The position numbers were made by a program, and so were the translations under genes. This document shows, piece after piece, positions 2,941 to 15,450 of a DNA stretch of 64,000 nt. Every line of letters begins with the position of its first letter. Position 1 is the stretch's first letter. The stretch covers positions 192,001 through 256,000 of the forward strand of contig CAWHAA010000005.1 in NCBI GenBank assembly GCA_963827275.1, read 5' to 3'. The notes under the pieces are model-generated. The model made no database searches. It saw nothing but the letters and a program-made list of their open reading frames with translations, and had not been told where the DNA came from. The stretch is from an uncultured Spirochaetota bacterium (GTDB lineage: Bacteria > Spirochaetota > UBA4802 > UBA5550).

Positions 2941-3270
2941 ATGAAGAGAAAGTCGACTGATACTGTTGAAATAATCATCCTGGACGGCCGGATCGACCAG
3001 GATGGCTCGGAAGAGCTCGAAGGACTCCTCCAGGACTGCCTGGACAAGGGCAAAAACAACATATGCATCGACCTGATGGACGTAAAGCATATATGCAGCT
3101 CGGCCCTGGGCGTGCTTGTCGCCATCAAAAGAAGGATCAAGGACAATGAAGGGGACATCAAGCTCGTCATAGTGAATGACAACCTGCTGCGGCTTTTCGA
3201 GACTACCATGCTGGACAAGGTCTTCGAGATATACGAATCACAGCGCGAATGCCTCTCCACCTTTGACTGA
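2941..3270 (+). CDS. STAS-domain anti-sigma-factor antagonist
   Basis: 109 aa; IDLMDVKHICSSALGVL motif carrying the phosphoacceptor Ser. Confidence 0.9.
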   Translation: MKRKSTDTVEIIILDGRIDQDGSEELEGLLQDCLDKGKNNICIDLMDVKHICSSALGVLVAIKRRIKDNEGDIKLVIVNDNLLRLFETTMLDKVFEIYESQRECLSTFD

Positions 3271-3283
3271 CAGCGGCGCGCCC

Positions 3284-4260
3284 ATGGGCAAAGACCTGAA
3301 AACCATACTCGCGCCGCTCGACCGGCATCTCAGGGATGTTGACCGCGAAATTGAAATGGCCCTGAAGACCGGGGTGCCGATCATTGACGCGAGCTCTCTC
3401 CACCTGTTCCTGAGCGGCGGCAAGCGCATCCGGGCGTCACTGGTCATTCTCACCAGCGGCCTGCAGGTCAGAGATCCCCGACGGCATCATCAAGCTCGCC
3501 GCCGCGACCGAAATTGTGCACGCCGCGTCCCTCATACACGACGACATCATCGACCAGTCGATGTTCCGCCGCGGCAATGTCACCGTCCCGCAGAAATGGG
3601 GCAACAAGGTCTCGGTGCTCGCGGGCGATTTCATGTATTCCGTCGCCCTCAACCTGGCGATCAGCGACGGGAACCCGGCCATCTTCCCCCTCATGGTGAA
3701 CGGCACGAAGGACATGGTCATGGGCGAGCTGTGCCAGCTCGAGTACGCCGATATCACGACCGCGTCGCGCGAACATTACTTGACCATCATCGAGCTCAAG
3801 ACCGCGCGCTTCATGGGCTCCTGCGCAAAGCTCGGCGCTACCAAGTCGGGCCTCGACAGGGCGGAGACGGAGCAACTCTACCGCTTCGGCCTCAACCTGG
3901 GATTTGCGTTCCAGATCATCGATGACACCCTGGACATCATGCAGAATGCCGACCATATCGGCAAGGACGCGGGGAGCGATTTCAAGGACGGCAAAATCAC
4001 ACTCCCCTTCCTCTACCTCATCGAGACCGGCGGCCCCGAGGCGCTGAAAACACTGAAGCGGTACATCGCCGGGCCCGAACCGGCGCTGTGGCAGTCGATA
4101 GTCAGGCAGCCTCGCCGATTCCGGCGCCATAGACTACTCGGTGCGATTTGCGGGCGCATACATCAATCAGGCCCGGGAAATCCTCGGGCAATTCCCCGAT
4201 TCACAATCCAGGAAAATCCTCTTCGAGCTGTCCGATTTTCTCCTGGACCGGACCTATTGA
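3284..4260 (+). CDS. Polyprenyl (hepta/octaprenyl) diphosphate synthase, frameshifted twice (about 3470 and 4105)
   Basis: GGKRIR in one frame, ASLIHDDIID...RRG and FQIIDDTLD...GKITLP in the next, C-terminus LFELSDFLLDRTY* ending at 4260. Likely assembly indels rather than a real pseudogene. Confidence 0.85.
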
Positions 4261-4403
4261 TCGTACAGGCCTGGCGGGAGTCATCCCGCCGATAAAAAAC
4301 ATCGCGTATTCAAACATATAATTTTTATAAATTTCAGTTGTAATTATTTGTACTCAAATTATACTTGAATCACGTGTTGAGTACCCGGCAGCGGAGAGGC
4401 GCT

Positions 4404-5107: not shown

Positions 5108-6109
5108 ATGGAAAAGCACGAAGCAGCCTTCTATGAAAAACTGCGACCGGGGAAGCGTGCGATGCACGCTCTGCCCGCACAACTGCGTCATCCAGGAAGG
5201 CAAAGCAGGAATCTGCGGCGTCCGCACCAACAGCGGCGGCGACCTTCTCACCGGGATATACGGCCGTCTCACCGTCCATGGCGATGGACCCCGTAGAAAA
5301 AAAACCTCTGTACCATTTCCATCCCGGCGGCAGCATACTCTCAATCGGCACCAAGGGCTGCAACATGAAGTGCCCCTATTGCCAGAACTGGCACATATCA
5401 CAGGACCGCATGGCCCGCACCACCTATTACGTCACCCGAAAAAATCGTCGAGGCTGCGATCGCCGAGGGGTCCGTCGGAATCGCCTACACCTATTCCGAG
5501 CCGATCATCTGGTTCGAATACGTGCGCGACACCGCCATACTCGCACGGAGAAGCGGCCTTGCCAATGTGATGGTGACCAACGGCTTCATCAATCCCGGGC
5601 CGCTCGGACAGCTCCTTGACCATATCGACGCGATGAACATCGACCTGAAAACCTTCCGCGACGAGACCATGCGGCACGTGCAGAAGGCCCGCCTCCCCGA
5701 GGTGCTGGAAACGATCAAGACCGCACACGGGCGCGGCTGTCATATCGAGCTCACCACCCTGGTGATCACCGGGATCAATGACGACATGGATGAGATGAGG
5801 GACATCATCGACTTCATCGCCTCGGTCGACAACAACATACCCTGGCACATATCGCGGTACCACCCGAGCTACAAGTACGACCGCCCCGCCACCGATGTCG
5901 GGTTCATGATGAAGGTGCATGCTGAAGCCGAGAAAAAGCTCAACTTTGTTTACTGCGGCAATGTATCTTCGAGTGAAGGAGGCCACGACACCCGGTGCCC
6001 CTCCTGCAAAGCGACGGTCATCAGGAGGAGCGGGTATTCCACGCGTATCGACGGGCTTGACGGCGGCAGGTGCGCGCAGTGCGGCCGCGAACTGGGAATC
6101 ATCAGGTAA
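5108..6109 (+). CDS. amrS: AmmeMemoRadiSam system radical SAM enzyme, three frameshifts (about 5140, 5270, 5438)
   Basis: Pieces across frames: HEAAFYEK / VRCTLCPHNC...GICGVR / DPVEKKPLYHFHPG...GCNMKCPYCQNWHISQ / IAYTYSEPIIWFEY...NIDLK...PWHISRYHPSYK...TRCPSC. Confidence 0.88.
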
Positions 6110-6676: not shown

Positions 6677-6709
6677 AAAAAAAACGGCAGTGCTGTCACT
6701 GCCGTTTTT
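6677..6709 (-). terminator. Intrinsic terminator of the qrc-like operon (possibly bidirectional)
   Basis: AAAAACGGCAGTG-CTGT-CACTGCCGTTTTT hairpin with an 8-T run on the minus strand, about 20 nt after the 6732 stop. Confidence 0.8.
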
Positions 6710-6731: not shown

Positions 6732-8048
6732 TTATGCGTGATGCTCCCCGCCCTCCTGGTGCGCATGCTCGGCATGGGGGAAGAGCGGCGTGTATTTCGC
6801 GAACCACATGTAGATGAGTATCATGACCGAGAGGCCGCCCAGGAATATGAACCATTCCTGTACGGTCGGGTTGTATCCGATGAACCCCTTCCAGGGGAAG
6901 TTCGGCACGGACGAGCCGTTCATCACGACGAAAATCTTGTTCACAAACAGGGCGCCGGCCGCGCTGCTGATGCCGATGAGAAACGTCTTTTCCTGTTCGC
7001 GGTTCTTCTTTATCAGCAGCATCGCGATTGCGACAATCATGAGAATGAATTCAATCGCGATCATCCACCAGCCGTAATATCCTCCCAGGAGGTCCGCGTA
7101 GGTCCTGTCAAAGAGCGGGGCCCACTTGGTCGCCAGCAGGGTGACATCGATCGCCCGCGCGATCATGTAGACGGTTATCATGATACCGGAAACCTTGGCG
7201 ATCGAATAGAAGCTCTCTTTGGGAACAACTTCTTTCTTCATGACCTTCCCGGCAATATAGGCGCACAGCGTCATGAAGGCCGTTCCGCCCGCGGTCGCAC
7301 CGATGATGACGACCAGGAAGTAAATGTGGTGCGCCCTGAACCATGCGGCCTTGCCGTACATGACGTCCCACATGCCGCCGCCCAGTGAGCCCTGGTGGAA
7401 GCAGGAGAGGAACGTGCCGGCCGCGGCGAAGATCCACATGAGCCGGTGGAGGTAGTGGCCGATATAATGAAGCGCGGGGATCGCGTCCAGGATCTTGTGC
7501 TTCAGCACGACCGGGATGAGCTCAACGCAGAGGATCATGAAATAGAGGGTCAGACACCAGACTACTTCTGTCAGCATCGACTGCGGCATCAGGTTCGGTC
7601 CCCAGTTGGGGTAGGTGTAGCCGAACCACGCCCGGATCGGCTGGCCGATGTCAAACACCAGGAAAACCAGGGTGAAGAGGTAGCACATGAACCCGATGAG
7701 CACCGTTGAATTGATGAAGGGCTCCAGCTTGTCGTTTCTGAAAATGTACAACAAAAACCCCGTGGTGAACGCGCCGCCGCCAAGGCCCACCAGGCCGAGG
7801 TCGCCGATGATCCACTGGCCGAAAGGATAGGCATTGCTCATGTCGGTGTACCCGAGCCCCCAGAACAGTATCTGAATGCCGAAGATGCCGAAGAGGACAA
7901 CCAGCAACACCAGTACCGCCAGGAAGACGCGGATGTTCCGTGTATAGCTCATATATTCATCCAGCAAGAATTTCGTCACCTTGTTCTTGCCCAGGAGGTT
8001 CCTCAGGGGAGCGAGTACCTTGTCAAGTGTATTGAATACTTTTTCCAA
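6732..8048 (-). CDS. qrcD: NrfD/PsrC-family integral membrane quinone-interacting subunit, QrcD-type
   Basis: About 10 TM helices; FGQWIIGDL, DIGQPIRAWFGY, SMLTEVVWC and FLSCFHQGSLGG closely match Desulfovibrio QrcD as recalled; last gene of a 4-gene operon. Confidence 0.85.
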   Translation of the reverse strand: MEKVFNTLDKVLAPLRNLLGKNKVTKFLLDEYMSYTRNIRVFLAVLVLLVVLFGIFGIQILFWGLGYTDMSNAYPFGQWIIGDLGLVGLGGGAFTTGFLLYIFRNDKLEPFINSTVLIGFMCYLFTLVFLVFDIGQPIRAWFGYTYPNWGPNLMPQSMLTEVVWCLTLYFMILCVELIPVVLKHKILDAIPALHYIGHYLHRLMWIFAAAGTFLSCFHQGSLGGGMWDVMYGKAAWFRAHHIYFLVVIIGATAGGTAFMTLCAYIAGKVMKKEVVPKESFYSIAKVSGIMITVYMIARAIDVTLLATKWAPLFDRTYADLLGGYYGWWMIAIEFILMIVAIAMLLIKKNREQEKTFLIGISSAAGALFVNKIFVVMNGSSVPNFPWKGFIGYNPTVQEWFIFLGGLSVMILIYMWFAKYTPLFPHAEHAHQEGGEHHA

Positions 8049-8087
8049 AGCTGTTCTCCTTCTATGAAATTATTGCATCAATCATGG

Positions 8088-8891
8088 TTATTTAAACTTC
8101 ATCATTTCCTTGATCCAGGCCTTGCTGGTGAGATAGTAAACTTTCGGATTCGGGAAATGCTTGACATGCATCATCTTCTCTTTCGTTTTCTCGTCCTTGT
8201 CGTCGATCGTATGGACCAGGCGGAACTTCCTGGCGCCCTCTTTCACGAGGAGCTGGCTCAGCTCTGAATTCGGGTCATCGAGGTCGCCGAACACCATCGC
8301 GCCGGTCGGGCAGGAAGCCACGCAGGCCGGGGTATAGAGGACGTCGTTGATGTCGAGGTTGCCGGCCGCCACCGCCTTGTCGCGCTCGCGTTTCCAGATA
8401 TGGCTGCAGAACTGGCACTTGACCACGGTCCCGCGGGAGGCCACCGATACGTCCGGGTTGAGGGAATTCTTGAACGATCCCTCGTATTTCGGCTTCCACC
8501 AGTTGAAGGCCCGCGCCTCGTAGGGGCACGACGCCTGGCAGTACCGGCAGCCGATACAGCGCGACCACACCTGGCTGACGACCCCGTCGTCGCCGACATC
8601 GGTCGCCACGACCGGGCAGACCGATACGCAGGGCGGTCTCGGGTTCTTCGGGTCATTGCCTTCGCACTGCTGGCACATCTTCGGTATAAAGCAGACCTCG
8701 ACGTCGGGATACTTGGCGTCGCGGTCATTGGTGACTTTCATGAGGTCGAGGAACTGCACGCGCTTCGGCAGATCGGAATCGTCCTCGAACACCGGCATGT
8801 TGTTCTCCTGCGCGCAGGCGATGGCGCAGGTGCCGCAGCCCGTGCACTTGTCCAGATCTATTGCCATTCCCCATCTTCTTTTCATTTTCAT
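8088..8891 (-). CDS. qrcC: 4Fe-4S ferredoxin-type electron-transfer subunit (NrfC/PsrB family), QrcC-type
   Basis: WGMAIDLDKCTGCGTCAIACAQENN, CQQC..PPCVSVCPVVAT, RCIGCRYCQASCPY, KCQFC, ACVASCPTGA. Confidence 0.88.
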   Translation of the reverse strand: MKMKRRWGMAIDLDKCTGCGTCAIACAQENNMPVFEDDSDLPKRVQFLDLMKVTNDRDAKYPDVEVCFIPKMCQQCEGNDPKNPRPPCVSVCPVVATDVGDDGVVSQVWSRCIGCRYCQASCPYEARAFNWWKPKYEGSFKNSLNPDVSVASRGTVVKCQFCSHIWKRERDKAVAAGNLDINDVLYTPACVASCPTGAMVFGDLDDPNSELSQLLVKEGARKFRLVHTIDDKDEKTKEKMMHVKHFPNPKVYYLTSKAWIKEMMKFK

Positions 8892-8906
8892 ATCCGTGTA
8901 TACCTC

Positions 8907-10874
8907 TTAGCTGATTTTGACCCTGGTGAGCCACCAGTTCGCGGCCCCGGTCAGGGGATCGATATCATTCGCCATTATCTCCTTGGGATTCACGCCTTTC
9001 TTCTTCGCATACTTCGTGTAGGCCTTGTGCCCGAACCCCAGCGGGATCGCAATCGTATCCGGGGCCACCGTGTCCGTCAGGTGGGCGCGGACGCTGCCGA
9101 TTTCGCCCCGGGATGATTCTATATCGATCCGCTCGCCTTCGCTGACGCCCTCTCTGTCCGCGGTCTCGCGGTTGATCTGGACCCAGAGCTTGCCTTCGGA
9201 GAAGGTCTTATCGTCGATCGTCTTGAGCACATAGGGGAAGGCCATCCCGTCGCCGTCGCCGACAAAGGCCAGCTCGGTCGGGATGAGCGAGAGCGTAAAT
9301 TCCCCCGTGTCCTTGAGGGTCTTTTCCAGGAGCGCGAGCTGGTCTTTCAGCACCTTCGCGTTATAGACCGTGCCGCCGATTCCGACCGCCGCCCCGTAGT
9401 TCTTCACCAGGTCAACGTAGCCGGCCCAGTTGAAGCTCCCCTTGATGTCGTCAACCTTCCTGGCGAGGCTGATGATTGCGTCGCCGGCGTGGACCGCCTT
9501 CATGTACGGTTTGAGCGCCGCGTCCCCGCCCGGGTTGGCCGATTCGAGGAAGCTCAGCGAGGGGAATATATAATCGGCGTACATTGCCGTGTCGTTGAGG
9601 AGCGGCATGATGCCCACGACAAACGCCTTTTCCATCTTCTCGATCAGCTCTTTGGCATACACGCTGCGGTACGCGGGATCGGCCTCGTTTACAAACAGCA
9701 TTTCGAAAGAGCCGTTCTTGATGAAATCGTCGAGCCCGGCGTGCTTTTTCGCCGCCTGCAGGGACGCCGCCGCGTTCGCGGAGAGGGCCGGTTCGCCCAG
9801 GCCCGGGTTTTTCTTCAGGGCGGCGGAGCGTGAGTTCACCAGTTGGTTGAGCGCGTACACCGCCATTATTTCCGCGGATGAAGAGGAGACCCCTTTGCCG
9901 CCGCGGCCCGCGACCGCGACCGGGTTCCCCGCGCGGGAGAAGGCTTCGGCCACGTCTTCAATCTGCTTCGCCTTCAGGCCGGTCAGGGCCGCTACTTTTT
10001 CCGTCGTATAGCTGCCGACAACCGCCATCCAGTCGGCGCCGCCGGTGGCCCGGCCTTTCTTCATTAAATAGTTCGCAATGCCCAGGGCAAGGATCAGTTC
10101 CGTGCCCGGCTTCACTGCGAGCCACTGGTCCGCGATTGAGGCAGTCCGCGTGCGGACCGCATCGACCTGGACGAGCTTCGTTCCCTTCTTTTTCCACTCG
10201 ATGAACGCCTTGTTCATTGAGCAGGAGGAGCCCCAGCCTTCCAGGAGGCGGGCGCCGAAGCTCAGGATGAAGTCTGCATTCTGGAAGTCGTAATCGACAT
10301 ACCCGCCGAGGGCGGCCTGGGTGAGGGAATTCAGTGAAGGCTCGTAATATGCGTTGCCGCTGCCGGCCGCCTTGACCATCCGGTCCAGGAGCGCCGCCGC
10401 GAGATTGTCATTCTTGTTGATGCCGGCGATGAGGTTCCCCTTCTTGTCGGCGATAAGCTTGTTCATCCGTTTGGAGATGTCGGCAAGGGCCTCTTCCCAG
10501 GAAACCTTTTCAAACGCCGACGCCTTTGCGCTCCCCTTGCTGCCGGTGCGCTTGAGGGGCGTGTCGATCCGCTCCGGGTGGTACACCAGCTGGAGCGCGT
10601 TCTGGCTGAACGGGCACCCGCTGTTCGATGATTCAATCTTCACCGCGCGGTCGCCGATCATCCGTATGGACATCTCGCATTTTTCACGGCATGCCGCGCA
10701 CATGGTCTTGAGATACTCTTCCTTGCCGGGCACGGGCACGTACTGGTCCTGCGTCCACTCAACCAGCCACTGCAGGCCGAGGAACGGGGCGCCGGAAAAC
10801 ACGTAGCCGGTAAGACCGCCGACAACCGCGCCGCCGCCTATCTTAAGAAAGTCTTTTCTCTCTATCTTTTTCAT
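8907..10874 (-). CDS. qrcB: Molybdopterin-oxidoreductase-fold periplasmic subunit, QrcB-type (probably non-catalytic)
   Basis: Tat-like leader ERKDFLK, CxxCxxxC..C, YHPERIDTPLKR, VSWEEAL, ADFILSFGARLLEGWG, VKPGTE, C-terminal Molydop-binding-like region (IAIPLGFGH); operon context. Confidence 0.8.
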   Translation of the reverse strand: MKKIERKDFLKIGGGAVVGGLTGYVFSGAPFLGLQWLVEWTQDQYVPVPGKEEYLKTMCAACREKCEMSIRMIGDRAVKIESSNSGCPFSQNALQLVYHPERIDTPLKRTGSKGSAKASAFEKVSWEEALADISKRMNKLIADKKGNLIAGINKNDNLAAALLDRMVKAAGSGNAYYEPSLNSLTQAALGGYVDYDFQNADFILSFGARLLEGWGSSCSMNKAFIEWKKKGTKLVQVDAVRTRTASIADQWLAVKPGTELILALGIANYLMKKGRATGGADWMAVVGSYTTEKVAALTGLKAKQIEDVAEAFSRAGNPVAVAGRGGKGVSSSSAEIMAVYALNQLVNSRSAALKKNPGLGEPALSANAAASLQAAKKHAGLDDFIKNGSFEMLFVNEADPAYRSVYAKELIEKMEKAFVVGIMPLLNDTAMYADYIFPSLSFLESANPGGDAALKPYMKAVHAGDAIISLARKVDDIKGSFNWAGYVDLVKNYGAAVGIGGTVYNAKVLKDQLALLEKTLKDTGEFTLSLIPTELAFVGDGDGMAFPYVLKTIDDKTFSEGKLWVQINRETADREGVSEGERIDIESSRGEIGSVRAHLTDTVAPDTIAIPLGFGHKAYTKYAKKKGVNPKEIMANDIDPLTGAANWWLTRVKIS

Positions 10875-10916
10875 GGATTATTTATCTCCTCTGACGATTT
10901 TCATGATACCGGGATA

Positions 10917-11492
10917 TCAATCGTGGCATACGGCGCACTTGTTGCTCAGCTGCAGGGCGGTGTGGCAATCCATGCACTGTCCCATGAGCATCTTGCCGCT
11001 CAGCATGTCCATGTTCCTGGAGCTCGCCTTGTCGCCATGGCATGATCCGCAGCGGGACTTCTGCCTGCCGTCTTCATATTTCGCGGTCATGACGACCTTG
11101 TGGCTGAAATAGACCAGGTCGGGCTGTTTCGCGTAGGAGCCCCACGGCTTGTCCGTGTCCGCGTATTTATCGAACATCGGCTTTCTGAGGGCCGTTCCCG
11201 GAGCGGCGTCCTTGGAGGAAGCGTTCCGGTCATGGCACGAGGTGCAGTCGCCCACGGTCGGGACGCCCTTGAACCTGCCGTTTTCATGATAGCCGTGGCA
11301 GACTTCGCAGTCGTCCTTGGCCATGCCGTTCTCCGGGAAATATTTGGTTAAATGGGACTGGTGGTTAAATACAACCGCTTTCTCCGGATGGTTTGCCATC
11401 ACGTAAGAACAACCCTTCTCGGAAGCTATAAAGGAAGCATAGAAGGATAAAATAAAGGGGATTCCGATAAGAAGTACTGTACGTTTCACCAA
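10917..11492 (-). CDS. qrcA: Membrane-anchored pentahaem cytochrome c, QrcA-type
   Basis: N-terminal TM helix; five CxxCH motifs (CEVCH, CTSCH, CGSCH, CMDCH, CAVCH); FNHQSH and QPDLVYFSH; TTG start with GGAG RBS. Confidence 0.85.
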   Translation of the reverse strand: MVKRTVLLIGIPFILSFYASFIASEKGCSYVMANHPEKAVVFNHQSHLTKYFPENGMAKDDCEVCHGYHENGRFKGVPTVGDCTSCHDRNASSKDAAPGTALRKPMFDKYADTDKPWGSYAKQPDLVYFSHKVVMTAKYEDGRQKSRCGSCHGDKASSRNMDMLSGKMLMGQCMDCHTALQLSNKCAVCHD

Positions 11493-11765: not shown

Positions 11766-13307
11766 TTATCCCTGTATCTGCCGCATCGCGATACCAAGAC
11801 AGTCCTGATCGGCGCCAGGCATATCGATCGAGGCAACTCCTGTCCGGGGGGCCATACTGACCGTTGTATCAGCGTTGATTCTTATCCTGAACCTTCCAAG
11901 CAAACCCATTATCCCGAGCGCCAGGCCCCTGGCCTTCCTCTGGCCGGTGTCATGCAATATAACCGCCACATAGTCATCATACCGGCAGATAACGCCCCTG
12001 CTTTTTATCCTATCCGCCAGCGCCGGGGCGACAAGCCTGATGACCGTGTTCTTCTGAGCATCATCGATGTAACCGATGGCATCGAAAAGACCGATTAATA
12101 CTATTGAAAAGATTTTGCCGCCGCCCTTCCATGATTTTCTGCTCTCGTCGAACGTGAGGTTGAAATAGATTTTATTATAAAGCCCCGTCGCGGCATCGAC
12201 CATCAAGTCATTGACGGCGAGGTAATCATGGATGTCCTTCATGATGCCCGCCATGGCGGTCTTTAACTCGCGGATTTCGGCACCCTGCAGGCCCGCCTGC
12301 TTCAGCATCATCACGCACCCGAGGAACACGCCGTTGTACACGAGGGGGACAAGGACCCTGCGGCCGTCTTCCATCACCATGGTCGCACCGCCGCGCATCT
12401 CATGACCCGCTTCATCCTCCGCATCTATCGCATCGAAGCTGGTCGAATTGATTCCGGTGAAGACGGTGCCGTTCAGCTCCATGGCCTTGAGCAGCCTGCC
12501 GGAGGAATGGGAGAGATACAGCGAAAGGCTGTCGGCGCCGTAGGCCCTGGCGGCCTTCCTGAAAAGCTCGTGCACGTATCCGCCCAGCGTGTCGGACGCG
12601 GCCGCCGGCGCGTCGCGGGAGACGACGCCGTCCCCGCGCGATGCCGGCCGGTCCCGCAGGTCAAGGTTGATGGTATAGCGGTCCCCCTTCTCCCGCCGCG
12701 ACGGCGTTTTTGTCAGCGCGATGTACAGGGCGGCGAAGATGACCACGATGCACGCGACTACCAGCGCGACCTCGAGCGCGGTGCGCACCAGGATCTTCCC
12801 GCCGAAGAGGTACGGGTACACGACCAGGAGCCGGTATGGCCCCGCCCTGCTGATGAAAACATAGAACTTGACCTGCCCGGCGCCGCGTCCCGTTTTTTCA
12901 TCATAGTACCTGACCGCGTAGGGGTTTTCCCGGCTTATATTGAAGGCGTCCTGTGTGAAATCCTTGAGGATCGCCTCGAACAGCTCCGAGGACCTGATGA
13001 ACCGGTCGTTCTTGCTTGAGAGCCGCACGGTGAGCCCCGGATCGGTAATGGCCATGAGCGCGATATCGCGGTTTTTCTCATGGACGCGGGCGAGGAACCC
13101 GGACAGGTCGTCCTGCCCCGGGGCCTTCTTCTCTCCGGCCAGGCGCTTTTCCATGGCGCCATATTCGCCCACGATCCGGTTGGTCTTCACGACAAGCGAG
13201 GCGATGATATCGCGCTCGACGTAGTTAAACCGCACGGTGAAATAGAGGAACAGGCTCAGCGCCAGGAACACGGCCCCCGCCGCGATAACTCTGAATTTCG
13301 TCGTCAT
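11766..13307 (-). CDS. Two-TM membrane protein with GAF-like and degenerate GGDEF-like domains
   Basis: Two TM segments; DAATGLYNKIYF (typical GGDEF N-terminus), but the active-site region reads CRYDDYV. Confidence 0.6.
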   Translation of the reverse strand: MTTKFRVIAAGAVFLALSLFLYFTVRFNYVERDIIASLVVKTNRIVGEYGAMEKRLAGEKKAPGQDDLSGFLARVHEKNRDIALMAITDPGLTVRLSSKNDRFIRSSELFEAILKDFTQDAFNISRENPYAVRYYDEKTGRGAGQVKFYVFISRAGPYRLLVVYPYLFGGKILVRTALEVALVVACIVVIFAALYIALTKTPSRREKGDRYTINLDLRDRPASRGDGVVSRDAPAAASDTLGGYVHELFRKAARAYGADSLSLYLSHSSGRLLKAMELNGTVFTGINSTSFDAIDAEDEAGHEMRGGATMVMEDGRRVLVPLVYNGVFLGCVMMLKQAGLQGAEIRELKTAMAGIMKDIHDYLAVNDLMVDAATGLYNKIYFNLTFDESRKSWKGGGKIFSIVLIGLFDAIGYIDDAQKNTVIRLVAPALADRIKSRGVICRYDDYVAVILHDTGQRKARGLALGIMGLLGRFRIRINADTTVSMAPRTGVASIDMPGADQDCLGIAMRQIQG

Positions 13308-13316
13308 GCCGTCTCG

Positions 13317-15281
13317 CTATTTTTCCCCGCCGGGCGTCATATCATACATCCGGTCTTCCTCCCACACGTACATCCCCCGTCCGTTTTTCGCCCGGTCGGG
13401 GCAGATCTTCATGATATATTTTTTCTCGTTCGGCCAGTAGGCGTTCTTCTGGCTGTGGTAGTAGCTGTCAAGGTCGCTGACATACTTCAACCCGTCCGAC
13501 CATATCTTCACGCCCCTGCCGTCGCGCTCCCCGTCCTTGAAGCGGCCGATATAGCGCGAGCTGTCAACGTAATACCATACCCCTTTCCCGTCGATCTTCC
13601 CATCGCGGAATTCCCCCACGTACTTGTCGCCGGAGGGGAGCATGAGCGAGCCCTGTCCGTGCATGCGGTCGTCCTGAAAATACCCGGTGTACCGCGCGCC
13701 GAACCACTCCGATTTCTTGCCCCAGGTGTAGGTGCCGAGCCCGTGCTTCCTGCCGTTCTTCCAGTCGCCCTCGTAGGAATCGCCCTCGCCCACTGTGAGC
13801 TTTTTCTCCTTCAGCATCACGCCGTTCGACCATGCCGCGGAATACTTCGCGATGACGGCGCCCTTTTCATCGTACTCGAACAGGGAGCCGTCGCCATGGC
13901 GCTTCCCGTCGAAAAACTGGCCGATATATTTTGACTTGATCCTGCCGTCGCGGTCATAGAGGATCAGCGTGCCCTCCCCGTTCGCCTTTCCGTCGATCAC
14001 CTGGCCGATGTAGTGGGAGAGGAGCACCCCGTTTTCATCATAGGTCAGGATCGACGCCTCCCCCGTCTCCTTGTCGCCGATATACATGCCGAGATATTTC
14101 CGGACCACCTTCCCGGCCTGGTTGTACACGAACTCGGTCCCCTGGCCGTCGCGCCGGTCATTGGCGAATTCCCCGATAAACTTTTTGAGCAGGCGGCCGT
14201 TGTCGTCATAGGTAAGCAGGACGCCGTCGCCGTGCTTCATCCCGTCCTTGAATTTTCCTTCATACTTCCGCACCATCACGCCGCGGTCGTTGTAGGTTAT
14301 GAGCGTGCCGTCGCCGTCGGGCTTCCCGTTCCTGAAATGCCCCTTGTATTCCTCGATCACGCCGCCCTGCTTGTTGTAGGTGACGAGCGTTCCCTCTCCC
14401 TCGGGAACGCCGTTGCTGAACGTCCCGGTATACTTGCTGAGGACCTTGCCGTCCTTGTCATACGTGATGAGCGTTCCCTGTCCCTCGGGCCTGCCGTTCT
14501 TCACCTTCCCGGTATACTTCGTCTTTTCCTTCCCGTCGCTGTCGTAGGTGATGATGGTCGCCTCGCCGTCTATGGAACCGTCGCGGTATTTTCCCGATAT
14601 TTTTTCGACCAGCTTGCCGTTTTGATCATACTTGAACACATCGACGAGGCCGCTCGGTTTTCCCTCATAAAATGTACCGACGATCTTCGATTCGATTTTA
14701 CCGTCCCTGTCATAGGTTATGAGCACCCCCTTGCCGTCCGGCACGCCGCTGGAGAAAAATCCGGAATACTCGCTCCTGAGCACGCCGCGTTCATCGTACG
14801 TTTTCATGACGCCTTCGCCGTCGAGACGGTTGTCCCGGAAGAAGCCGTCCTGTACGCTCTGTATCTTGCCGTTTTCGTGGTAGGCGGTCAGGGTGCCGCG
14901 GTCATACGCGCCGTTTTTCATCGTCCCCCTGAACTGGGCGGTCAGCCTCCCCCGGGAATCGTATTCCGACACCACCACCTCGCCGACCGGCACGCCGTTT
15001 TCAAACATGCCCTCGATCTTCTTGATGACATTTCCTTTGTCATCCAGCACATACAGCACTCCCTTGCCATGGGGCTTGCCGTTTTTCGTTTCCCCTACAT
15101 ACCGGTGGTTGTCCCAGACCAGCGCGCCCTTGTCGGCCGGCAGTTTGGCCGCCTCCTTCTGCGCCGCCCGGTCGCCGGCAACGGAGCTGTCTTGTTGCGT
15201 GCGGACCTGCTTTTTGCTCATATCGCAGGCCGCCACGCTCGCGGCAATCACCACCAACAGGATCAGACTCACCCTTTTCAT
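13317..15281 (-). CDS. MORN-like repeat lipoprotein
   Basis: MKRVSLILLVVIAASVAA|C lipobox (second Met of the ORF, GAGGGGG RBS); about 15 tandem 28-aa repeats, then about 4 canonical MORN repeats (YEGDWKNGRKHGLG). Confidence 0.85.
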   Translation of the reverse strand: MKRVSLILLVVIAASVAACDMSKKQVRTQQDSSVAGDRAAQKEAAKLPADKGALVWDNHRYVGETKNGKPHGKGVLYVLDDKGNVIKKIEGMFENGVPVGEVVVSEYDSRGRLTAQFRGTMKNGAYDRGTLTAYHENGKIQSVQDGFFRDNRLDGEGVMKTYDERGVLRSEYSGFFSSGVPDGKGVLITYDRDGKIESKIVGTFYEGKPSGLVDVFKYDQNGKLVEKISGKYRDGSIDGEATIITYDSDGKEKTKYTGKVKNGRPEGQGTLITYDKDGKVLSKYTGTFSNGVPEGEGTLVTYNKQGGVIEEYKGHFRNGKPDGDGTLITYNDRGVMVRKYEGKFKDGMKHGDGVLLTYDDNGRLLKKFIGEFANDRRDGQGTEFVYNQAGKVVRKYLGMYIGDKETGEASILTYDENGVLLSHYIGQVIDGKANGEGTLILYDRDGRIKSKYIGQFFDGKRHGDGSLFEYDEKGAVIAKYSAAWSNGVMLKEKKLTVGEGDSYEGDWKNGRKHGLGTYTWGKKSEWFGARYTGYFQDDRMHGQGSLMLPSGDKYVGEFRDGKIDGKGVWYYVDSSRYIGRFKDGERDGRGVKIWSDGLKYVSDLDSYYHSQKNAYWPNEKKYIMKICPDRAKNGRGMYVWEEDRMYDMTPGGEK

Positions 15282-15450
15282 CGCGTCCCCCCTCAGGATT
15301 TTCATGGATTCCCCGGGCAGCGCCGCCAGAACACCCCCGGAAAACTGTACAGATAATGATGAATAAACCTCATTGTTCCGGTGATTGTCAAGATTTTTAG
15401 CTTTTAGCCCTAAATTTCTTCTCCCCCGCCCGCCGGGGAGAAACAGTGTT

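What the first reader, a model, noticed from the sequence alone, without database searches (positions are those of the whole stretch)
6732..11492. Complete QrcABCD-type quinone-reductase complex in an apparent spirochaete
Seen: a tightly packed minus-strand operon of pentahaem cytochrome c, Mo-oxidoreductase-fold protein, 4Fe-4S protein and NrfD-type membrane protein, ending in a clean terminator. Established: this order and these motifs (DIGQP.RAWFGY, SMLTEV, FHQGSLGG) define Qrc, the electrogenic cytochrome c3:menaquinone oxidoreductase characterised in Desulfobacterota sulfate reducers and related to alternative complex III. Inference: neighbouring genes look spirochaetal, so this may be a Qrc-based respiratory or reverse-electron-transfer (syntrophic) chain in a lineage where it is not well described. 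The fatty-acid-type enzymes and polyprenyl synthases in the window are compatible with this but do not prove it.
Basis: partly seen in the sequence, partly recalled or inferred. Interest (0 to 1): 0.72.

Follow-up and report, generated by a model that had tools for sequence, protein, structure and literature searches.

The report
Spirochaete Qrc wired to formate dehydrogenase
An uncultured spirochaete in which no sulfite-reductase gene was found carries a divergent copy of the four-gene Qrc membrane complex of sulfate reducers, and in its relatives these genes go with formate- and hydrogen-converting enzymes that have no membrane anchor of their own, so Qrc likely is the link that would let these cells export electrons from fatty acids as formate or hydrogen to methane-making partners.

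Summary
Observation confirmed: four intact minus-strand genes and a strong terminator encode a Qrc-type complex. It is a sister clade of Desulfovibrio-type Qrc: QrcD is 33% identical, all five essential residues are kept, and every subunit is below the NCBIfam cut-off. The host is a spirochaete, probably class UBA4802. QrcD is in 91 of 122 class genomes and 0 of 288 other Spirochaetota sampled. It goes with an EMO-like protein (78 of 91) more than with dsrA (24 of 91). Differences from known Qrc: a second qrcA inside periplasmic formate dehydrogenase operons (24 of 32 extra copies), fdh-qrc and hydrogenase-qrc gene runs, c3-type cytochromes with lipoprotein-like signals, and a retained four-cysteine site in QrcB. 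Most likely Qrc replaces the cytochrome b subunit of the syntrophic reverse redox loop; direction is inferred, and uptake respiration is a strong rival. Qrc outside Desulfobacterota is already in print (Acidobacteriota, Ca. Lernaellota). This scan found spirochaete Qrc before on other DNA (e1-714903, e1-5216390).

The parts
10917..11492 (-). qrcA-like gene: pentahaem cytochrome c with an N-terminal membrane anchor (191 aa, TTG start)
   Evidence: 5 CxxCH; hydrophobic helix at residues 5-23; NF041781 QrcA 77 bits, cut-off 180; 28% identical to the N. vulgaris-type QrcA; 57% identical to a second copy at G000:C5:375705-376259
8907..10874 (-). qrcB-like gene: Mo-bisPGD-fold subunit with a twin-arginine-like signal (RK in this copy); the Mo-ligand cysteine is replaced by Asn (655 aa)
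   Evidence: NF041783 QrcB 307 bits, cut-off 440; alignment to ArrA; model pLDDT 85.9, best folds ArrA and PsrA; 28% identical to N. vulgaris-type QrcB
10614..10700 (-). Four cysteines of QrcB (C59, C62, C66, C87) in the spacing of the FS0 iron-sulfur site of molybdoenzymes; cluster binding is predicted, not shown
   Evidence: All four kept in 24 of 33 spirochaete QrcB against 3 of 52 Desulfovibrio-type QrcB
8088..8891 (-). qrcC-like gene: iron-sulfur subunit with four 4-Cys groups; Y117 equals the essential Y113 of N. vulgaris QrcC
   Evidence: NF041782 QrcC 276 bits, cut-off 400; CIGCRYC motif in both; 40% identical to N. vulgaris-type QrcC
6732..8048 (-). qrcD-like gene: NrfD/PsrC-family quinone-reactive membrane subunit; D83, Y123, D133, S157, Y169 equal D70, Y110, D120, S138, Y150; K371 stands for R358
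   Evidence: NF041784 QrcD 295 bits, cut-off 570; 33% identical to N. vulgaris QrcD, E 1e-62; residues kept in 119-120 of 120 relatives; tree
6680..6709 (-). Intrinsic terminator-like hairpin with U tail directly after qrcD
   Evidence: 13 pairs; -23.9 kcal/mol, z -5.11, 0 of 200 shuffles

Best explanation
The four genes encode a Qrc-type membrane complex that likely serves as the only menaquinone interface for this cell's anchor-less periplasmic formate dehydrogenases and hydrogenase, and it likely runs mainly in reverse, from menaquinol to formate or hydrogen, during fatty-acid oxidation with a partner organism. Shown in sequence: the operon and its essential residues; an EMO-like protein, ETF and many acyl-CoA dehydrogenases; two twin-arginine formate dehydrogenases and one periplasmic NiFe hydrogenase with no membrane subunit gene; c3-type cytochrome genes beside the hydrogenase; and a second qrcA closing one formate dehydrogenase operon. 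Inferred path: acyl-CoA dehydrogenase to ETF to EMO to menaquinone; QrcD/QrcC oxidise menaquinol at the outer face and release its protons to the cytoplasm, which lets the proton gradient drive the step; electrons pass through QrcC and QrcA to the second QrcA and formate dehydrogenase, or to c3-type cytochromes and hydrogenase. Qrc would thus do the job that the cytochrome b subunit of the membrane-bound formate dehydrogenase is recalled to do in Syntrophus. The complex is expected to be reversible, so uptake of formate or hydrogen would use the same wire.
For: Identity. Partners in G000: fdhA (Fdh-N alpha over cut-off, TGA in frame), fdhB, fdhE, qrcA2 in one run; c3-protease-c3-hydrogenase run; EMO-like protein with 5 hydrophobic segments, H109/H249/H267 against H87/H233/H251 of Syntrophus EMO, and E 1.5e-109 to PDB 9ojn, the mycobacterial EMO; ETF and 20 acyl-CoA dehydrogenase domain matches. 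No dsrA. Class-wide: of 91 genomes with QrcD, 78 have the EMO-like protein, 74 the hydrogenase and 24 dsrA; 77 of 79 genomes with this hydrogenase have qrcA or qrcD; family f3 has 0 of 12 for qrcD, qrcA, EMO, c3, this hydrogenase and MqnA/D. Gene order: 24 of 32 extra qrcA copies directly follow fdhB or fdhE. The whole qrc operon follows fdhAB-fdhE in G071, G081, G116, G119, G120, G121 and follows the hydrogenase in G022, G023, G028. 30 of 30 fdhB loci from Qrc-bearing genomes have no multi-helix ORF within 1.5 kb downstream, whereas 4 FDH and 3 hydrogenase loci from five Qrc-less genomes carry their own NrfD-type subunit. Papers: UBA4802 members expressed butyrate and isobutyrate oxidation with formate generation (PMC7382037); Qrc acts reversibly in syntrophy (PMC6303296) and is more abundant in syntrophic Syntrophobacter (PMC5947623).
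Against: Direction cannot be read from sequence, and the same gene set serves uptake. G000 also has electron sinks: NrfHA, cytochrome bd, a DsrMK/TmcBC-like pair and a haem-copper family enzyme. No methylmenaquinone methylase candidate was found: the proxy family NF006385 had 0 of 122 over its cut-off, without a positive control. Syntrophus uses methylmenaquinone for this loop. G000 has MenA-like (64 bits, cut-off 102) and UbiE/MenG-like genes but no MenB or MqnA/D, so its quinone supply is not shown. 13 of 91 QrcD genomes lack the EMO match and 12 EMO genomes lack Qrc. In the PMC7382037 supplement, rows for two species of genus RBG-16-49-21 score 0 for butyrate and isobutyrate in the 22 of 56 places I saw, though they score lipases, H2 generation, cytochrome bd and multihaem cytochromes in some reactors. 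The Qrc-less loci were fetched because they held an NrfD match, so that contrast is partly selected; G068 and G115 have the anchor-less hydrogenase type with no Qrc match. Relatives are not independent samples.
Confidence: 0.55

Rival explanations
1. Forward, uptake role as in Desulfovibrio: periplasmic H2 and formate are oxidised, and Qrc reduces menaquinone electrogenically. Menaquinol then feeds nitrite reductase, cytochrome bd, an NO reductase, sulfite reduction in dsr-bearing relatives, or EMO running towards enoyl-CoA reduction.
For: This is the measured direction of Qrc (PMC13059093). The same partner genes are needed. NrfHA and cytochrome bd are in G000. Enoyl-CoA respiration through EMO is described (PMC8805022). 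Ca. Lernaellota Qrc was read this way without sulfate reduction (PMC9324843). No methylmenaquinone methylase candidate was seen.
Against: No single terminal acceptor tracks Qrc across the class: dsrA in 24 of 91 QrcD genomes, haem-copper family in 38 of 122, against EMO-like in 78 of 91. Class members expressed fatty-acid oxidation with formate generation in digesters. G000 has no FeFe hydrogenase as another H2 outlet. The two directions are not exclusive.
Confidence: 0.3
2. Qrc belongs to a sulfite-respiring chain (Qrc to menaquinol to DsrMK(J)OP to DsrAB), and G000 either lost the dsr genes or holds them in the unassembled part of its genome.
For: dsrA matches in 27 of 122 class genomes (26 over cut-off), 8 of 16 in the own genus. 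The 4 of 10 fetched dsr loci whose ORFs I listed carry dsrAB, dsrC and dsrMKOP-like genes. 26 of 27 dsrA genomes have qrcA or qrcD. G000 is 92% complete.
Against: 67 of 91 QrcD genomes have no dsrA, including all 13 of family f6. qrc sits in a conserved housekeeping neighbourhood while dsr is patchy. No aprA in 0 of 122, though no control rang; two UBA4802 genomes in PMC10591310 Table S1 also lack sat, apr and qmo. Essential residues are intact in dsr-less genomes.
Confidence: 0.08
3. It is a minimal alternative complex III or a Psr/Arr-type reductase that oxidises quinol for an oxidase or reduces a sulfur or metal substrate.
For: The B subunit folds most like ArrA and PsrA and keeps the FS0 cysteines. 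G000 has a haem-copper family gene.
Against: The Mo-ligand cysteine is Asn. B and C are separate genes and nothing follows D but a terminator. QrcD has no match among solved chains, which include PsrC and ActC by the papers read, at E 0.001, but E 1e-62 to QrcD. Full-length matches at about 450-480 bits, typical of cytochrome c oxidases, occur in only 6 of 122 genomes and not in G000.
Confidence: 0.04
4. The operon is contamination or a recent transfer from a sulfate reducer and is not part of the spirochaete's metabolism.
For: Qrc is classically a Desulfobacterota complex; contamination estimate 3.9%.
Against: It lies on an 810-kb contig; operon GC 0.58 against 0.56 for the contig. It is present in 16 of 16 other genomes of the genus with the same flanks, and the spirochaete QrcD form their own clade outside the Desulfovibrio-type sequences.
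Confidence: 0.01

Closest known systems
QrcABCD, type I cytochrome c3:menaquinone oxidoreductase of Nitratidesulfovibrio vulgaris and other Desulfobacterota (PMC13059093, PMC6303296)
   Same: Gene order; membrane-anchored multihaem A; Mo-ligand-less B; four-cluster C with the Y113 equivalent; NrfD-type D with D70, Y110, D120, S138, Y150 equivalents; periplasmic hydrogenase and formate dehydrogenases without membrane subunits; sister position in the QrcD tree.
   Different: 28-40% identity and below all curated cut-offs; R358 is Lys in 120 of 120 and E413 is not kept (both non-essential in N. vulgaris); B mostly keeps four FS0 cysteines; a second qrcA sits in formate dehydrogenase operons; c3-type cytochromes carry lipoprotein-like signals; no link to sulfate reduction.
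EMO / methylmenaquinone / membrane-bound formate dehydrogenase reverse redox loop of Syntrophus aciditrophicus (bioRxiv 10.64898/2026.08.18.745454, PMC8805022)
   Same: EMO-like protein with three matching haem-ligand histidines, ETF, many acyl-CoA dehydrogenases, periplasm-facing formate dehydrogenase.
   Different: The formate dehydrogenases here have no membrane subunit gene; Qrc is inferred to fill that place; no methylmenaquinone methylase candidate was found.
Qrc reported outside Desulfobacterota: Acidobacterium MAG CO124 (PMC10564751) and Ca. Lernaellota (PMC9324843)
   Same: Complete qrcABCD in another phylum; in Ca. Lernaellota with anchor-less FdhAB and no sulfate reduction.
   Different: Those are one or two genomes read as uptake systems; here it is a near-core trait of a whole class with gene-order links to FDH and hydrogenase. 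I did not compare their sequences.
Alternative complex III (ActABCDEF) and Psr/Arr molybdoenzymes
   Same: Shared modules: pentahaem cytochrome, Mo-bisPGD fold, iron-sulfur subunit, NrfD-type membrane subunit.
   Different: No B-C fusion, no ActD-F genes, no Mo ligand, no detectable sequence match of D to solved chains.

Membership tests
QrcABCD | Four genes in the order multihaem cytochrome, Mo-bisPGD-like, Fe-S, NrfD-type | tested here: met
   23 of 26 titled loci, 3 cut by contig ends
QrcABCD | QrcA: membrane-anchored penta- or hexahaem cytochrome c | tested here: met
   5 CxxCH, helix 5-23; 41 of 52 Desulfovibrio-type QrcA also have five
QrcABCD | QrcB: separate Mo-bisPGD-fold subunit without the metal ligand | tested here: met
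   Ligand Cys of ArrA aligns to Asn; no Cys at that place in the rows shown; fold
QrcABCD | QrcB carries no redox cofactor at all | tested here: inconclusive
   Four FS0-spaced cysteines kept here and in 24 of 33 spirochaete QrcB, against 3 of 52 Desulfovibrio-type; cluster binding untested
QrcABCD | QrcC: four Fe-S clusters and the essential Tyr113 | tested here: met
   Four 4-Cys groups; Y117 in CIGCRYC
QrcABCD | QrcD: essential D70, Y110, S138, Y150 | tested here: met
   D83, Y123, S157, Y169; kept in 119-120 of 120 relatives
QrcABCD | QrcD: conserved but non-essential R358 and E413 | tested here: not met
   Lys in 120 of 120; E413 position mostly Leu or Ala; alanine variants still work in N. 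vulgaris
QrcABCD | QrcD: ten membrane helices | tested here: inconclusive
   Nine segments by a crude hydropathy scan; full-length alignment to N. vulgaris QrcD
QrcABCD | Scores above the NCBIfam QrcA-D cut-offs | tested here: not met
   77/180, 307/440, 276/400, 295/570; 0 of 49 class matches over the QrcD cut-off
QrcABCD | QrcD groups with Desulfobacterota QrcD, not with HybB/HmcC or DsrP | tested here: met
   Sister clades, SH-aLRT 100, quick tree of 63 rows; same with 26 partial sequences added; ActC, PsrC and TtrC were not in the trees
QrcABCD | Soluble type I cytochrome c3 as redox partner | tested here: inconclusive
   Class III cytochromes in G000 and 93 of 122 genomes; all four in G000 have a lipobox-like Cys after a hydrophobic stretch; partnership untested
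QrcABCD | Menaquinone as substrate | tested here: inconclusive
   MenA-like and UbiE/MenG-like only in G000; MqnA/D in 65 of 122 class genomes, none in the own genus
QrcABCD | Electrogenic activity, one proton per electron | not testable with these tools
   Needs proteoliposome assays as in PMC13059093
QrcABCD | Part of sulfate respiration | tested here: not met
   No dsrA in G000; dsrA in 24 of 91 QrcD genomes; aprA 0 of 122 without a positive control
Alternative complex III | Fused ActB, plus ActD, ActE and ActF genes | tested here: not met
   B and C separate; terminator after D
Psr/Phs/Arr molybdoenzymes | Cys ligand to molybdenum in the catalytic subunit | tested here: not met
   Asn at the aligned position
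Syntrophus-type reverse redox loop | EMO: NarI-like haem b domain plus Fe-S and CCG domains | tested here: met
   G000:C2:142659-144821; 93 of 122 genomes
Syntrophus-type reverse redox loop | Formate dehydrogenase with its own membrane subunit | tested here: not met
   0 of 30 fdhB loci from Qrc-bearing genomes
Syntrophus-type reverse redox loop | Methylmenaquinone as carrier | tested here: inconclusive
   Proxy family NF006385 (its link to MenK/MqnK is recalled) 0 of 122 over cut-off, no positive control; only HemW among HemN-like radical SAM ORFs seen in G000

The most novel reading that the evidence does not exclude
Class UBA4802 spirochaetes run a second design of the syntrophic reverse redox loop: EMO reduces plain menaquinone, and a Qrc complex, hard-wired to formate dehydrogenase by a dedicated QrcA paralogue and to hydrogenase by lipid-anchored c3-type cytochromes, carries most of the uphill step, with an extra iron-sulfur cluster in QrcB. 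The electron export chain of a widespread uncultured fatty-acid-degrading lineage would then be a membrane-tethered wire with no soluble cytochrome c3 pool and no methylmenaquinone.
Probability: 0.35. Interest if true: 0.75.

Novelty: new variant of a known kind. Interest (0 to 1): 0.52.

Why it matters
How electrons from acyl-CoA oxidation reach formate or hydrogen is the hardest energetic step of methanogenic fat and fatty-acid breakdown. It has been worked out biochemically in Syntrophus. UBA4802 spirochaetes are reported as fatty-acid degraders in digesters, but the papers I could search name no quinol-oxidising half for them. A near-core Qrc with gene-order links to formate dehydrogenase and hydrogenase names that half and makes it testable, because a N. 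vulgaris qrc deletion strain and a proteoliposome assay exist. It also shows Qrc as a general quinone adaptor for anchor-less periplasmic enzymes and not a marker of sulfate reduction. The complex itself is a known kind, so the surprise is moderate.

Tried and rejected
Complex prediction of QrcA2 with FdhB: no verdict, score 0.00, counts neither way. Expression: no RNA holder listed; two runs of uncertain type gave only short, shallow contigs, not used. Promoter scan: not above chance. PDB sequence search with QrcD: no match; no Qrc structure appeared in the fold search of QrcB. The careful QrcA tree did not finish; the quick tree was used. No donor or order of events is claimed: no rooted clade test was run, and most Desulfobacterota-side sequences are unnamed or Desulfovibrio-like. 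Five of the 16 rows labelled spirochaete come from sources that name no organism (P0085, P0121, P0123, P0128, P0129). aprA and methylase searches lacked positive controls. PMC9397102 (long-chain fatty-acid degraders) and PMC2906268 (first Qrc paper) are not held, so I know them only through citing papers. Rejected: ACIII hybrid, Psr-type reductase, contamination, and the window's fatty acid hydroxylase and polyprenyl synthases as evidence. Rows dropped before counts: L031 (cut start), L089 and L091 (duplicates), QrcD counted only for strong matches plus G086 (contig end), leaving out 6 genomes with weak NrfD matches among the 97.
Full report
Observation. The four ORFs are as described: 10917-11492, 8907-10874, 8088-8891 and 6732-8048, all on the minus strand and unbroken. 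A 13-pair hairpin with a U tail follows the last stop and folds far better than shuffles. The first protein has five CxxCH motifs and one N-terminal helix. Pfam gives molybdopterin oxidoreductase, 4Fe-4S and NrfD domains for the others. No promoter could be picked out.

What it is. The best NCBIfam family of each protein is the matching Qrc subunit, well ahead of PhsA, DsrO, HybB and HmcC, but each score is below the curated cut-off. I obtained N. vulgaris QrcD as P0302 and the A, B and C subunits from a metagenome locus whose QrcD is 100% identical to it. Identities are 28, 28, 40 and 33%. A 2026 mutagenesis study (PMC13059093, parts 1-3 of 7 read) found five essential residues: QrcC Y113 and QrcD D70, Y110, S138, Y150. 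All five are kept here, the QrcD four in 119-120 of 120 relatives. The non-essential R358 is Lys in all 120 and E413 is not kept. In a quick tree of 63 membrane subunits the spirochaete clade is sister to Desulfovibrio-type QrcD with SH-aLRT 100, apart from HybB/HmcC-like and DsrP proteins. Adding 26 partial sequences left it outside that group. The B subunit folds like ArrA and PsrA but has Asn where ArrA has its Mo-ligand Cys (that this Cys is the ligand is recalled). It keeps four cysteines in FS0 spacing, as do 24 of 33 spirochaete QrcB against 3 of 52 Desulfovibrio-type QrcB. So it works like Qrc and is its sister clade, but it fails the curated cut-offs and the link to sulfate respiration, and I file it as a variant.

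Host and spread. All 26 titled loci with close QrcD are Spirochaetota, and five flanking genes of the window recur in 21 of them. One of these records is titled RBG_16_49_21, and the PMC7382037 supplement places a genus of that name in class UBA4802, family UBA5550; the class name is therefore inferred, not read from G000. QrcD is strong in 91 of 122 genomes of the class, including 16 of 16 others in the genus. In an even sample of the phylum it was in 49 of 63 class members and 0 of 288 others.

Partners. G000 has no dsrA and no FeFe hydrogenase; it is 92% complete. It has two twin-arginine formate dehydrogenases and a periplasmic NiFe hydrogenase, none with a membrane subunit gene. Two c3-type cytochrome genes lie beside the hydrogenase and two more elsewhere; all four have a hydrophobic stretch ending in a lipobox-like Cys, so they are predicted lipoproteins. 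One formate dehydrogenase operon ends in a second qrcA, 57% identical to the first. Of 32 loci fetched for extra qrcA matches, 24 directly follow fdhB or fdhE, 3 follow MobA/FdhE-like genes, 1 lies near a convergent fdhAB, and 4 are other cases. In a quick tree, the 24 rows that follow fdhB or fdhE and are not operon heads fall in one clade of 26 (SH-aLRT 94), next to the qrcA of genomes where qrc follows fdh. The whole qrc operon directly follows fdhAB-fdhE in six genomes and follows the hydrogenase in three, with G110, G118 and G027 cut or interrupted. These are a minority, and some loci were chosen because coordinates suggested the link. None of 30 fdhB loci from Qrc-bearing genomes has a multi-helix ORF just downstream, whereas in five Qrc-less genomes 4 FDH and 3 hydrogenase loci carry their own NrfD-type subunit; those loci were fetched for their NrfD match, so the contrast is partly selected. 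77 of 79 genomes with this hydrogenase type have qrcA or qrcD.

Inner side. G000 has ETF genes, 20 acyl-CoA dehydrogenase domain matches and an EMO-like protein with three histidines spaced like the haem ligands of Syntrophus EMO and a strong match to the solved mycobacterial EMO. The EMO-like protein is in 93 of 122 genomes and in 78 of the 91 with QrcD. Against expectation, 27 of 122 genomes have dsrA, 8 of 16 in the genus, in islands with dsrC and dsrMKOP-like genes (4 of 10 fetched loci listed). No aprA was found (no positive control), and PMC10591310 Table S1 lists two UBA4802 genomes with dsrA but no sat, apr or qmo. Only 24 of 91 QrcD genomes have dsrA.

How it most likely works. In Syntrophus, electrons from acyl-CoA (about -10 mV) reach formate (about -290 mV in syntrophy) through EMO, methylmenaquinone (-156 mV) and a membrane-bound formate dehydrogenase, driven by the proton gradient (bioRxiv 10.64898/2026.08.18.745454, part 1 of 6 and passages; its supplements were not seen; PMC8805022 passages). 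[quoted passage not shown] Run backwards it would release quinol protons to the cytoplasm and so supply the second coupled step of the loop. That is my inference. UBA4802 members expressed butyrate and isobutyrate oxidation with formate generation (PMC7382037 passages) and are listed as candidate butyrate and long-chain fatty-acid syntrophs (PMC13248872 passages). Against it: no methylase candidate for methylmenaquinone was seen, so with plain menaquinone (about -74 mV, recalled) the Qrc step would carry most of the uphill and need a strongly reduced pool. G000 has only MenA-like and UbiE/MenG-like genes, which suggests precursor salvage; MqnA/D occur in 65 of 122 genomes but not in this genus. 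Rows for genus RBG-16-49-21 score no short-chain fatty-acid oxidation in the places I saw. G000 also has NrfHA, cytochrome bd and a haem-copper family enzyme, which fit uptake respiration. I give the reverse role 0.55 and uptake 0.30; that the operon is a Qrc-type quinone-cytochrome link is about 0.9.

What is known. A 2021 survey found QrcD only in 35 deltaproteobacterial species (PMC8076601 passages). Qrc has since been reported in an Acidobacterium (PMC10564751 passages) and in Ca. Lernaellota, there with anchor-less FdhAB and no sulfate reduction (PMC9324843 passages). I found no paper placing Qrc in spirochaetes, and none describing a qrcA paralogue in an fdh operon, in searches (listings; only the papers named here were opened); 'qrc' has 0 hits in the main texts of PMC7382037, PMC13248872 and PMC10591310 and in the supplements of the first and third. 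Subscription journals are not searched, and PMC9397102 could not be read. This scan noted spirochaete Qrc twice before on other DNA; those notes, as far as shown, do not mention the second qrcA, the EMO link or the dsr-bearing relatives.

Verdict. A real, native, functional-looking Qrc variant that is near-core to one spirochaete class. The complex is a known kind; the wiring to formate dehydrogenase and its likely place in fatty-acid syntrophy are new and testable. Interest 0.52.

Noticed in passing
27 class genomes; loci L171-L180: dsrAB islands with dsrC, a dsrN-like gene, dsrT, dsrMKOP-like genes and a second DsrM/K-like pair, with no aprA found in the class. PMC10591310 lists only two such UBA4802 genomes, so sulfite-type respiration may be much commoner in this class than reported.
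   Followed up: partly
G000:C6:74382-76601 (L216): Two-subunit haem-copper family enzyme in which subunit I has Asp where the first CuB histidine is expected and subunit II lacks CuA cysteines; this resembles the gNOR nitric oxide reductases (family recalled, not tested).
   Followed up: partly
G000:C5:577195-578145; C7:37933-38256; C7:38883-39278; C4:525148-525570: A 12-haem c3-type cytochrome and three small c3-type cytochromes, all with lipoprotein-like signal peptides; relatives beside hydrogenase in L080, L194 and L214 look the same.
   Followed up: partly
G000 and its genus: No MqnA/D in any of the 17 genomes of the genus and no MenB in G000, but MenA-like and UbiE/MenG-like genes in G000: possible dependence on a menaquinone precursor from neighbours.
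   Followed up: partly
L079 (G080); L083 (G089); L084 (G065): G080 has a very divergent qrcABC run with no qrcD match; G089 and G065 each have a second, 43-44% identical qrcD without the other subunits nearby.
   Followed up: no
L181-L188 (G076, G088, G113, G059, G068): Qrc-less class members carry FdhAB plus NrfD-type and HybOABC-type operons.
   Followed up: partly
window 3176-4295 and 5133-6109; G000:C7:40375-41943; G000:C5:386794-389167; G000:C5:405000-412000: Several genes are split across reading frames (polyprenyl synthase, a radical SAM gene, the hydrogenase large subunit, the second formate dehydrogenase, an Ech-like hydrogenase cluster). This looks like insertion or deletion errors in the assembly; the four qrc genes are not affected.
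   Followed up: no
G000:C5:113879-115816; C6:103617-105949; C8:133522-135494; C6:108267-109586; C10:139562-141385: NrfHA nitrite reductase, cytochrome bd, a DsrMK/TmcBC-like pair, an ExtKL-like multihaem protein and a QmoC-like membrane Fe-S protein next to glycerol-3-phosphate dehydrogenase-like genes.
   Followed up: partly
window 11766-13307 and 13317-15305: Upstream of qrcA: a membrane protein with a weak GGDEF-like domain, present in 14 of 26 related loci, and a long MORN-repeat protein with a lipoprotein-like start.
   Followed up: no
L055, L068, L069, L070, L076; L023, L028: QrcB in the five fdh-qrc loci aligned has lost the first FS0 cysteine, and two other relatives keep only one of the four, so the site is variable.
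   Followed up: partly
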